From an uncultured Bacilli bacterium (lineage in GTDB: Bacteria > Bacillota_I > Bacilli_A > RFN20 > CAG-826): DNA of 64,000 nucleotides. The stretch covers positions 41,155 to 105,154 of the forward strand of contig CALVOX010000001.1 of NCBI GenBank assembly GCA_944350425.1, in the 5' to 3' direction. The position numbers and the translations under genes are program-made. Shown piece by piece: positions 2,527-3,002 of the stretch. The notes under the pieces were generated by a model that saw only the letters and a list, made by a program, of their open reading frames with translations, was not told where the DNA came from and did not search any database. Numbering within the stretch: the first letter of the stretch is position 1; the number at the start of each line of letters is the position of its first letter.

Positions 2527-3002
2527 ATGATAACTTTAAAAGAAGGAAATATTTTTGAATCTAAATGCAAAACGCTTGTCAATCCAATAAACTGTGTTGG
2601 AGTAATGGGTAAAGGTTTAAGTTTAGTTTTTAAGGAAAATATCCCCGAATGTTTATTAATTATCAAAAGTTTTGTTCTAAAAACTTAATAAAGATTGGAA
2701 TTTTATATCCTTATTCAATTAATAATGAAGTAAGAGTAATAAATTTTCCAGCCAAAAAACACTGGCGACATAAATCTAAACTAGAATATATCGATAAAGG
2801 ATTAAAATACTTTATCGATAATTATAAAAGATTAAATATTACCTCAATTGCTTTTCCGCCTTTAGGTTGTGGAAGTGGTGGATTAGATTTTAACCTTGTT
2901 TATGATTTAATGAAATCTTATTTAAATGATTTAGAGATTGAAATTGAGATATATAAGCCTTTAGAGGAAACAAGTTTGTTTGATTTATTCTTTTGCAACT
3001 AG
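2527..3002 (+). pseudogene. Macro domain (DarG-like ADP-ribose hydrolase) gene interrupted by a +/-1 frameshift
   Basis: The N-terminal part (MITLKEGNIFESKCKTLVNPINCVGVMGKGLSLVFKE…) runs from 2527 to a stop near 2700. The C-terminal part continues in another frame from about 2634 (GKYPRMF…VINFPAKKHWRHKSKLEYIDKGL…SIAFPPLGCGSGGLDF…). Joined, they give a contiguous macrodomain. The break falls at ggaaaatatcccc (aaaa/cccc runs, 2634-2646). Confidence 0.6.

What the first reader, a model, noticed from the sequence alone, without database searches (positions are those of the whole stretch)
2630..2650. Macrodomain ORF broken by a single-base frameshift at an A4/C4 homopolymer
Both halves of the macrodomain are intact and align in order (…GLSLVFKE | KYPRMFINYQKF…). 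The only lesion is a frame change within ggaaaatatcccc. This could be a sequencing or assembly error, a recent inactivating mutation, or a slip-strand on/off switch. If the macrodomain is an antitoxin-like component, its inactivation state matters for the neighbouring operon.
Basis: seen in the sequence. Interest (0 to 1): 0.5.

Follow-up and report, generated by a model that had tools for sequence, protein, structure and literature searches.

The report
Frameshifted stand-alone DarG-like macrodomain pseudogene
A small gene for an enzyme that strips ADP-ribose off DNA or proteins is truly broken here by a one-base loss, and related wild strains have broken the same gene in at least five other ways, so this is an ordinary dispensable gene being lost, not a sequencing error or a genetic switch.

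Summary
Window 2527-3002 encodes a 158-codon macrodomain split over two frames: ORF1 2527-2688 and ORF2 2649-3002. Compared with intact alleles, AAG CAA AAA TAT has become AAG GAA AAT AT. That is a C>G change at 2635 plus one A lost from an A5 run (now A4, 2636-2639). The C4 run is not involved.

It is not an assembly error. Three independent assemblies are 100% identical over 9-12 kb and carry the same lesion, and the exact 117-aa ORF2 is on 16-23 contigs.

The protein is a DarG/TARG1-type macrodomain (PADLOC DarG 1.6e-60; PDB 5m3i 1.4e-35). It has no DarG C-terminal half and no DarT gene nearby, so it is not a DarTG antitoxin.

Within three closely related lineages of an uncultured, AT-rich Bacilli bacterium, the gene is inactivated by at least six separate lesions. 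About 23% of contig observations are broken. Neighbouring genes are almost never broken (Fisher p = 8e-4). Intact alleles show dN/dS of about 0.2.

Verdict: a recent, strain-fixed pseudogene of a conditionally dispensable gene. Programmed frameshifting and phase variation are not supported. Interest is low to moderate.

The parts
2527..2637 (+). 5' native coding part of the macrodomain gene. It covers codons 1-37, which include the ADP-ribose-binding residues N8, N22 and K29 and the GVMGKG loop.
   Evidence: ORF list. tblastn frame 1. Alignment to intact alleles. Residue roles come from the TaqDarG structure (PMC5179494).
2635..2639 (+). The lesion. G2635 was C in intact alleles, and the A-run 2636-2639 is A4 where intact alleles have A5. 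The net effect is -1 nt at codons 37-38.
   Evidence: DNA alignments against 19 intact or otherwise broken alleles.
2638..2688 (+). Out-of-frame tail of ORF1: 16 junk codons (NIPECLLIIKSFVLKT) and a TAA stop.
   Evidence: This tail has no counterpart in any homologue.
2637..3002 (+). 3' native coding part in the other frame (codons 38-158 plus stop). The callable ORF2 starts at ATG 2649 (Met42).
   Evidence: tblastn gives 100% identity for residues 38-158 at 2637-2999. Pfam Macro matches profile positions 57-116.
2751..2756 (+). Codon 76 GCC (Ala), replacing the invariant Thr, followed by codon 77 AAA, the equivalent of the catalytic Lys80 of TaqDarG.
   Evidence: Thr is present in 108 of 108 homologues whose motif could be read. 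All other alleles of the clade have PTKKHW. Roles of T79 and K80 come from PMC5179494.
1735..2478 (+). Upstream membrane-protein gene (247 aa). It is the conserved 5' neighbour, 48 nt away, and is probably co-transcribed with the macro gene.
   Evidence: The same neighbour is present in L002, L005-7, L011, L013-22 and L026-27. There is a weak NCBIfam Pr6Pr hit, below the cut-off. No terminator was found between the two genes.
2977..5321 (-). Inserted four-gene cassette, convergent with the macro gene: a 122-aa protein, a 124-aa protein (phrog_9479), an M78 peptidase fused to DUF4417, and an XRE regulator. It supplies the last 6-7 codons of the macro gene. It is context, not part of the lesion.
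   Evidence: Absent from L002, L003, L004 and L026. blastn junctions fall at 2976 and 5322.

Best explanation
**What it is.** Window 2527-3002 is a true pseudogene, fixed in one clonal strain. The gene encodes a stand-alone DarG/TARG1-type macrodomain, an ADP-ribosyl hydrolase.

**What an intact copy probably does (inferred).** Intact alleles in sister strains encode a 152-158 aa single-domain enzyme. By homology it should remove ADP-ribose from thymidine in single-stranded DNA, or from other ADP-ribosylated substrates, using the Lys equivalent to TaqDarG K80.

**What happened here (shown).**
- A net one-base loss at codons 37-38 (CA>G at 2635-2639) ends translation after 37 native and 16 junk residues.
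- The remaining ORF2 (from Met42) lacks six of the eleven ADP-ribose-contacting residues (N8, L9, T20, N22, V31 and Q34 in TaqDarG numbering) and K29.
- ORF2 also carries Ala at the invariant Thr next to the catalytic Lys.
- No active enzyme is therefore expected (inferred).

**Why it happened (inferred).** The gene has no toxin partner and is only conditionally useful. In this clade of uncultured AT-rich Bacilli it is lost again and again through ordinary small indels, a start-codon mutation and a rearrangement. Copies that remain intact are still under purifying selection.
For: **The lesion is real.**
- Three other assemblies (ENA ERZ28613962, Logan ERR4096498 and ERR4096500) are 100% identical to the window over 9-12 kb, including the lesion.
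- The exact ORF2 protein is on 16 contigs, or 23 contigs read in 26 blocks.

**The ancestral state is a single ORF.**
- All close orthologues and 11 of the 14 sequences in the same 90% cluster are 158-aa single ORFs.
- The representative MAG of the species ('uncultured Bacilli bacterium', L008) is intact.

**Family.**
- Pfam Macro, E 3.9e-15.
- PADLOC DarG, E 1.6e-60 over model positions 1-148 of 329.
- PDB DarG macrodomains 5m3i (1.4e-35) and 5m31 (1.2e-33), and TARG1 (8e-5).

**Loss is recurrent.**
- L009 and L010: a 1-nt deletion in ATGGG[C/A]AAAGG (codons 28-29).
- L011: the same deletion plus an extra A at the window's own A-run (A6), with a TAG stop between the two.
- P0145 with P0148: the codon 28-29 deletion again, in a lineage without the cassette.
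- L026-28: start codon ATG>AGG.
- L023-25: the first ~105 nt replaced by unrelated DNA.
- P0137: a frameshift at about codon 59.

**Tally and control.**
- 95 intact against 29 broken contig observations, so 23% are broken.
- 8 of 38 listed macro sequences are truncated, against 3 of 112 for ten neighbouring genes (Fisher p = 8e-4).

**The gene is functional where intact.** Pairwise dN/dS is 0.10-0.29 among diverged alleles.

**Extra damage in the window allele.** T>A at a Thr invariant in all 108 homologues whose motif could be read. That residue hydrogen-bonds ADP-ribose in TaqDarG.
Against: - No reads were available, so a systematic error shared by all assemblies cannot be formally excluded, though it is very unlikely at an A4 run.
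- The 16-23 contigs of the window allele are one clone. They replicate the sequence but count as one evolutionary event.
- Contig tallies may count the same runs twice when they were assembled by both ENA submitters and Logan.
- The enzymatic activity of the intact protein, and the inactivity of the two fragments, are inferred from homology only.
- The mutation creates an AAGGA Shine-Dalgarno-like motif 12 nt upstream of the ORF2 ATG. That spacing is also seen at a few real genes in the window, so a truncated protein might be made.
Confidence: 0.82

Rival explanations
1. Phase-variable (contingency) gene. Slipped-strand mispairing at the short A-runs would switch the hydrolase on and off reversibly.
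For: The same A-run is seen as A4 (window), A5 (intact alleles) and A6 (L011). A second short run (GGGAAAAGG) is shortened in three haplotype backgrounds. Five of six lesions lie in the first 38 codons.
Against: - The tracts are only 4-5 nt long, and the longest run in the gene (A6 at nt 229) is never hit.
- The window allele needs a substitution as well as a deletion.
- All contigs of the window clone are OFF. No ON protein with its diagnostic PAKKHW motif exists among the 14 cluster members.
- Other alleles are irreversibly dead, by start-codon loss or 5' truncation.
- L011 carries two indels with a stop between them, which points to decay rather than switching.
Confidence: 0.07
2. Sequencing or assembly artefact. 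The real genome would have a contiguous 158-codon ORF.
For: The lesion touches a homopolymer. The window probably derives from a metagenome-assembled genome, since P0121 is in NCBI and the species representative is a MAG.
Against: The identical lesion appears in independent assemblies from at least three samples and two pipelines, with 100% identity over 9-12 kb. The change is CA>G, not a simple run-length miscall. A4 runs are not error-prone in short-read data (general knowledge).
Confidence: 0.03
3. Programmed recoding. A -1 ribosomal frameshift or transcriptional slippage would yield the full-length macrodomain from the split gene.
For: The frames differ by -1, and the two ORFs overlap by 40 nt.
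Against: There is no X XXY YYZ slippery heptamer in the ORF1 frame across the overlap. The downstream RNA fold is not distinct from shuffled sequence (z = -1.24). A4 is too short for transcriptional slippage. Homologues are plain single ORFs, and other broken alleles have different lesions at other sites.
Confidence: 0.02
4. Neo-functional fragment. The mutation creates an AAGGA ribosome-binding site, so ORF2 would be expressed as an N-terminally truncated 117-aa protein with a new or regulatory role.
For: AAGGAAAA lies 12 nt upstream of ATG 2649. Similar motifs and spacings precede real genes here, at 5318-5716 and 2985-3353. Four other broken alleles also leave a callable ORF from Met42.
Against: ORF2 lacks beta-strands 1-2 and the phosphate-binding loop, with six ADP-ribose contacts. 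It also carries T76A at an invariant site. The other Met42 alleles keep AAACAAAAATAT and have no Shine-Dalgarno-like motif. Met42 is simply the first ATG after the lesions.
Confidence: 0.05

Closest known systems
DarG, the antitoxin of the DarTG toxin-antitoxin and phage-defence system (M. tuberculosis and Thermus aquaticus; PDB 5m3i, 5m31)
   Same: The macrodomain is the same type. The PDB matches have E values of 1.4e-35 and 1.2e-33 over residues 1-148. PADLOC DarG gives 1.6e-60. The GVMGKG loop, the PTKKHW motif with the catalytic Lys, and the GCGSGG loop are conserved in intact alleles.
   Different: Only the N-terminal macro half is present (model positions 1-148 of 329 and 1-151 of 338). 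The NCBIfam DarG equivalog scores 185 bits against a cut-off of 250. There is no DarT gene next to it or among the window's 42 large ORFs. In this window the gene is also frameshifted.
Stand-alone TARG1-like hydrolases: human TARG1/C6orf130 (PDB 4j5r) and Streptomyces coelicolor SCO6735
   Same: These are single-domain macrodomains of about 150 aa with no cognate toxin. Both reverse thymidine-linked DNA ADP-ribosylation (PMC8501950, PMC9411070). The catalytic Lys is in the same position.
   Different: Sequence similarity is much weaker than to DarG: TARG1 scores E 8e-5, and SCO6735 is not among the PDB hits at E <= 0.01. The activity of this protein has not been tested.
Phage-borne orphan DarG-like antitoxin mimics
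   Same: These are orphan ADP-ribosyl hydrolases without a toxin partner that neutralise DarT (PMC11825919, PMC11481870).
   Different: This gene sits in a conserved chromosomal position between a membrane-protein gene and a CBS-domain gene in all three lineages. No relative was found in IMG/VR viral contigs.

Membership tests
Macro domain (Pfam PF01661) | The profile match exceeds the gathering score and covers the whole domain. | tested here: met
   The repaired 158-aa sequence scores 56.3 bits against a cut-off of 22, covering profile positions 1-116 of 118.
Macro domain (Pfam PF01661) | A single uninterrupted reading frame encodes the domain. | tested here: not met
   Residues 1-37 are in frame 1 and residues 38-158 in frame 3. 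The same holds in three other assemblies.
DarG antitoxin of DarTG | A DarG-type macrodomain with a catalytic Lys (TaqDarG K80). | tested here: met
   PADLOC DarG scores 1.6e-60 and PDB 5m3i and 5m31 match. Lys77 aligns with K80. However, the adjacent invariant Thr is Ala in the window.
DarG antitoxin of DarTG | A C-terminal DarT-binding domain, giving a full length of about 330-340 aa. | tested here: not met
   Matches cover only model positions 1-148 of 329 and 1-151 of 338. NCBIfam scores 185 bits, below the 250 cut-off. Intact alleles end at 152-158 aa.
DarG antitoxin of DarTG | An adjacent DarT (DUF4433) toxin gene in the same operon. | tested here: not met
   Neither the upstream membrane protein nor the downstream cassette proteins give a DarT hit. 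None of the 22 PADLOC families hit by the window's 42 ORFs of at least 150 aa is DarT. The rest of the genome was not available.
Stand-alone TARG1/SCO6735-like ADP-ribosyl hydrolase | A single-domain macro protein of about 150 aa with the TARG1-type catalytic Lys. | tested here: met
   Intact alleles are 152-158 aa. TARG1 aligns over residues 2-143 with E 8e-5. The Lys position is taken from PMC5179494.
Stand-alone TARG1/SCO6735-like ADP-ribosyl hydrolase | Hydrolysis of ADP-ribosyl-thymidine or ADP-ribosyl-protein. | not testable with these tools
   Needs an enzyme assay or a DarT-rescue assay with a repaired or intact allele.
Phase-variable contingency locus (slipped-strand mispairing) | A long simple repeat or homopolymer, typically 7 nt or more, inside the ORF. 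| tested here: not met
   The tract is A4 in the window and A5 in intact alleles. The gene's longest run is A6 at another site and is unaffected.
Phase-variable contingency locus (slipped-strand mispairing) | ON and OFF tract lengths coexist in one strain background. | tested here: not met
   All 16-23 contigs of the clone are OFF. No 158-aa sequence with this haplotype's PAKKHW motif is in the fully listed cluster. Read-level mixtures were not testable.
Programmed -1 ribosomal frameshift | A slippery heptamer plus a downstream structure, conserved among homologues. | tested here: not met
   There is no X XXY YYZ heptamer in the overlap. The fold z-score is -1.24. Homologues are single ORFs.

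The most novel reading that the evidence does not exclude
The first ~40 codons of this orphan DarG-like gene may be a true hotspot, where recombination junctions, small indels and a rearrangement breakpoint coincide. Null alleles may be positively selected, for example because the hydrolase undoes a useful ADP-ribosylation made by a defence or competition system elsewhere in the genome. The locus would then behave as a population-level on/off polymorphism of an anti-ADP-ribosylation function. Observations that fit but do not prove this:
- Five of six lesions fall within codons 1-38.
- The window allele's 5'/3' haplotype junction lies within 5 nt of its lesion.
- L011, L012 and L019 switch haplotype in the same interval.
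- The L023-25 truncation breakpoint is at the same A-run.
Probability: 0.12. Interest if true: 0.5.

Novelty: new member of a known kind. Interest (0 to 1): 0.25.

Why it matters
For annotation, window 2527-3002 should be called one pseudogene of a stand-alone DarG-like macrodomain. It should not be called two small genes or a DarTG antitoxin, and it has no functional link to the neighbouring cassette. More broadly, it is a natural example of an orphan DNA ADP-ribosyl hydrolase that is kept under purifying selection in most strains yet knocked out repeatedly in others. That pattern is expected of a conditionally useful protective or anti-toxin gene, and this uncultured Bacilli species could serve as a small case study. 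No new mechanism is implied.

Tried and rejected
- **Exact 32-mer across the lesion in GTDB genome contigs:** no hit. The protein-based scan then found only one genome, the intact L008.
- **JGI metagenome scan with a conserved 25-mer:** no hit. These organisms are only in ENA, Logan and NCBI data.
- **IMG/VR scans with the macro protein and the M78-DUF4417 protein:** no relatives, so there is no evidence that the locus is viral.
- **Literature search for sample and run accessions, to learn the habitat:** nothing relevant.
- **Promoter and terminator scan of 2300-3500:** fewer promoter-like sites than in shuffled sequence, and no terminator between the membrane gene and the macro gene.
- **RNA fold downstream of the lesion:** not significant.
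- **DarT search:** no DarT among the neighbours or the 42 large ORFs.
- **Is the 124-aa/122-aa pair of the cassette an ADP-ribosyltransferase toxin-immunity pair?** That would have tied the macro gene to the cassette. There is only a PHROG family of unknown function (phrog_9479) and a chance-level KwaB hit, so nothing supports it.
- **Cassette ends:** no clear target-site duplication or terminal inverted repeat was found.

Full report
**1. The observation**

Window 2630-2650 reads ttaaggaaaatatccccgaat. Two overlapping ORFs flank it: ORF1 at 2527-2688 (53 aa) and ORF2 at 2649-3002 (117 aa). Adding one A to the A-run gives a 158-aa protein that matches Pfam Macro over profile positions 1-116 of 118 (E 3.9e-15). 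ORF2 alone covers only profile positions 57-116, and ORF1 alone matches nothing. tblastn places residues 1-37 in frame 1 and residues 38-158 in frame 3, starting at 2637. There is no second macro copy in the window. The split is therefore real and not a chance resemblance.

**2. The exact lesion**

Intact close relatives exist: P0001 (94%, 158 aa), P0002 (80%, 153 aa) and P0003 (82%, 152 aa). Their DNA reads AA[G/A] CAA AAA TAT/TTT CC, whereas the window reads AAG GAA AAT ATC CCC.

The closest intact allele on the 3' side is L019-21, with AAG CAA AAA TAT CCC CGA ATG. Against it, the window shows C>G at 2635 and A5>A4 at 2636-2639. The CCCC run also occurs in intact alleles and is not the lesion. 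By residue numbering the lesion is at codons 37-38, and ORF2 begins at Met42.

**3. Not an assembly artefact**

The exact 53-aa ORF1 product is on two Logan contigs. The exact 117-aa ORF2 product is on 23 contigs read in 26 blocks, or 16 contigs by the cluster table, from NCBI, ENA and Logan. L005, L006 and L007 come from three samples and two pipelines. They are 100% identical to the window over 9,111-12,000 bases and carry the identical lesion. This is one clonal strain seen many times, so the sequence is well replicated but counts as a single mutational event. Reads could not be inspected.

**4. What the gene is**

- The best solved relatives are the DarG macrodomains of M. tuberculosis (5m3i, E 1.4e-35) and T. 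aquaticus (5m31, 1.2e-33). Human TARG1 is distant (8e-5).
- PADLOC DarG matches at 1.6e-60, but only over model positions 1-148 of 329.
- The NCBIfam DarG equivalog gives 185 bits against a cut-off of 250, over positions 1-151 of 338.
- Intact alleles end at 152-158 aa.

It is therefore the macro half of DarG without the C-terminal half that, in the DarTG literature, supplies the second layer of DarT control through protein-protein binding (PMC5179494).

No DarT is present. The upstream neighbour is a multi-pass membrane protein with only a weak, sub-threshold Pr6Pr hit. The downstream neighbours have no DarT hit. None of the 22 PADLOC families matched by the window's 42 ORFs of at least 150 aa is DarT. 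The rest of the window is housekeeping: tRNA synthetases, FtsZ, Lon, RuvB, UvrC, Obg and trigger factor. The only genome record found calls the organism 'uncultured Bacilli bacterium'. G+C content is about 26%.

**5. Consequence of the lesion (inferred)**

In TaqDarG, ADP-ribose is held by N8, L9, T20, N22, V31, Q34, T79, G117, G119, N120 and G121, and K80 is catalytic. The mutations N22A, K29E, G119E and K80A impair activity (PMC5179494). Numbering in the N-terminal part is the same here.

ORF1 therefore keeps the first six contact residues but none of the rest. ORF2 keeps the catalytic Lys (K77 here) and the Gly loop but lacks the first six contacts and K29. In addition, the window has Ala (GCC, 2751-2753) where Thr (TaqDarG T79) stands in all 108 of the 120 homologues whose motif could be read, and in every other allele of the clade. 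An active hydrolase is not expected from either fragment.

**6. The wider pattern: recurrent loss**

The 90% cluster that holds the window's ORF2 has 14 distinct sequences: 11 intact (158 aa) and 3 truncated (117 aa). The three truncated alleles carry different lesions, and the two sister clusters also hold broken alleles.

| Allele or loci | Lesion | Basis |
|---|---|---|
| Window, L005-7 | CA>G at codons 37-38 | DNA |
| L009, L010 (two unrelated assemblies) | 1 nt lost in ATGGG[C/A]AAAGG, codons 28-29 | DNA |
| L011 | Same deletion, plus an extra A at the window's A-run (A6), with a TAG stop between them | DNA |
| P0145 (32 aa, '...VMGKVYL') with P0148 (112 aa from Met42) | Codon 28-29 deletion again, in a lineage without the cassette | Protein only |
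| P0137 (68 aa) | Frameshift at about codon 59 | Protein only |
| L026-28 | Start codon ATG>AGG, plus P20S | DNA |
| L023-25 | First ~105 nt replaced by unrelated DNA; homology resumes at ...CAAGCAAAAATAT, and upstream synteny is broken | DNA |

That makes at least six independent inactivating events.

**7. Tally and controls**

- Contig observations are 95 intact against 29 broken, or 23% broken.
- As a control I looked up ten neighbouring genes. 3 of 112 listed sequences are truncated, against 8 of 38 for the macro gene (Fisher p = 8e-4).
- Intact alleles are not decaying. Pairwise dN/dS is 0.10-0.29 across all diverged pairs.
- Caveats: contig counts are not independent samples, and two of the lesions were read from protein sequences only.

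**8. Alternatives**

*Programmed frameshifting.* There is no X XXY YYZ heptamer in the overlap. The downstream fold is unremarkable (z = -1.24). Homologues are single ORFs. I reject this.

*Phase variation.* The A-run does occur as A4, A5 and A6 across the population. Against that, the tracts are very short and the gene's longest run (A6 at nt 229) is untouched. The window allele also needs a substitution. The clone is uniformly OFF, with no ON sibling on record. Other alleles are irreversibly dead. This is unlikely, at about 0.07.

*Expressed ORF2.* The mutation creates AAGGA 12 nt before ATG 2649, and a few real genes here have a similar arrangement. But the fragment lacks core strands and the binding loop, and the other Met42 alleles have no such motif.

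**9. Relation to the neighbouring operon**

Window 2977-5321 is a four-gene cassette on the minus strand:
- an XRE regulator;
- an M78 peptidase fused to DUF4417 (PHROG 'nuclease' and metallo-protease families);
- a 124-aa protein of phrog_9479;
- a 122-aa protein with no family match.

It is inserted exactly between the convergent stops of the macro gene and the CBS-domain gene. It rewrites the macro C-terminus from ...SLF to ...SLFDLFFCN.

Sister lineages carry the macro gene without the cassette. The cassette genes are intact beside both intact and broken macro alleles. Nothing links the two functionally.

**10. An unexplained detail**

The window allele is a recombinant. Codons 1-35 differ from L012 at 1 of 105 positions and from all other haplotypes at 12-16 of 105. 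Window 2641-2760 differs from L019-22 at 3 of 120 positions and from L012 at 18 of 120. The junction lies between codons 34 and 35, within 5 nt of the lesion. L011, L012 and L019 also switch haplotype in this interval, and the L023-25 breakpoint is at the same A-run. Five of six lesions lie in the first 38 codons. This could be a local hotspot, selection for early null alleles, or a small-number coincidence. I could not decide between these.

**11. Verdict**

'Assembly error', 'slip-strand switch' and 'antitoxin of the neighbouring operon' are not supported.
- The feature is a frameshift pseudogene of a stand-alone DarG/TARG1-like macrodomain.
- It is one instance of recurrent loss of this gene in a clade of uncultured AT-rich Bacilli.
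- Interest is low to moderate (0.25).

Noticed in passing
window 2977-5321 (minus strand): A 2.3-kb four-gene cassette sits exactly between the convergent stop codons of the macro and CBS-domain genes. It holds an XRE regulator (102 aa), an M78/ImmA-like peptidase fused to DUF4417 (401-407 aa), a 124-aa phrog_9479 protein and a 122-aa orphan. It is present in some lineages and absent in L002-4 and L026. No clear target-site duplication or terminal repeat was found. The XRE protein is a single identical sequence on 59 contigs.
   Followed up: partly
L013 15929-17389 (also L014, L015, L011 and L002); the corresponding window site is about 8560: A second, paralogous module lies between the YgjP-like and SpoU-methylase genes in several strains: DUF4417 (231 aa), a phrog_9479 protein (131 aa) and a 126-aa protein. 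It is absent from the window, where those two genes abut. DUF4417 with phrog_9479 and a small orphan therefore looks like a recurring three-gene mobile unit of unknown function.
   Followed up: partly
window 2527-2760 compared with L011, L012, L013 and L019: The macro gene is strongly mosaic. Three 5' haplotypes (ESKCK, DSKLK, ESNAK) are combined with two or three 3' haplotypes (IKIG..INNEV, IKVG..IDGEI). All switches fall between about codons 34 and 41, the same interval that holds the window's lesion.
   Followed up: partly
L023 1-6000; also L024 and L025: In one sub-lineage the DNA upstream of the truncated macro gene is entirely different. It includes a partial ORF of over 2,100 aa, a VTT-domain protein and several small ORFs in place of the glycogen phosphorylase and membrane-protein genes. 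This indicates a rearrangement or insertion whose breakpoint lies inside the macro gene.
   Followed up: no
window 15137-15329 and 59739-59816 (plus strand): Rfam finds a T-box leader (93.3 bits) just upstream of the ORF at 15369-16409, and a ribosomal protein L21 leader (45.6 bits). Both are typical of Bacillota and agree with the 'Bacilli' label of the related MAG.
   Followed up: no
window 6591-7082 (minus strand) and its orthologues: The 2-thiouracil desulfurase gene is called at 152, 155, 163 or 166 aa in different strains. The M78-DUF4417 gene occurs as 401-, 385- and one 223-aa form. These are start-site or length variants that I did not examine.
   Followed up: no
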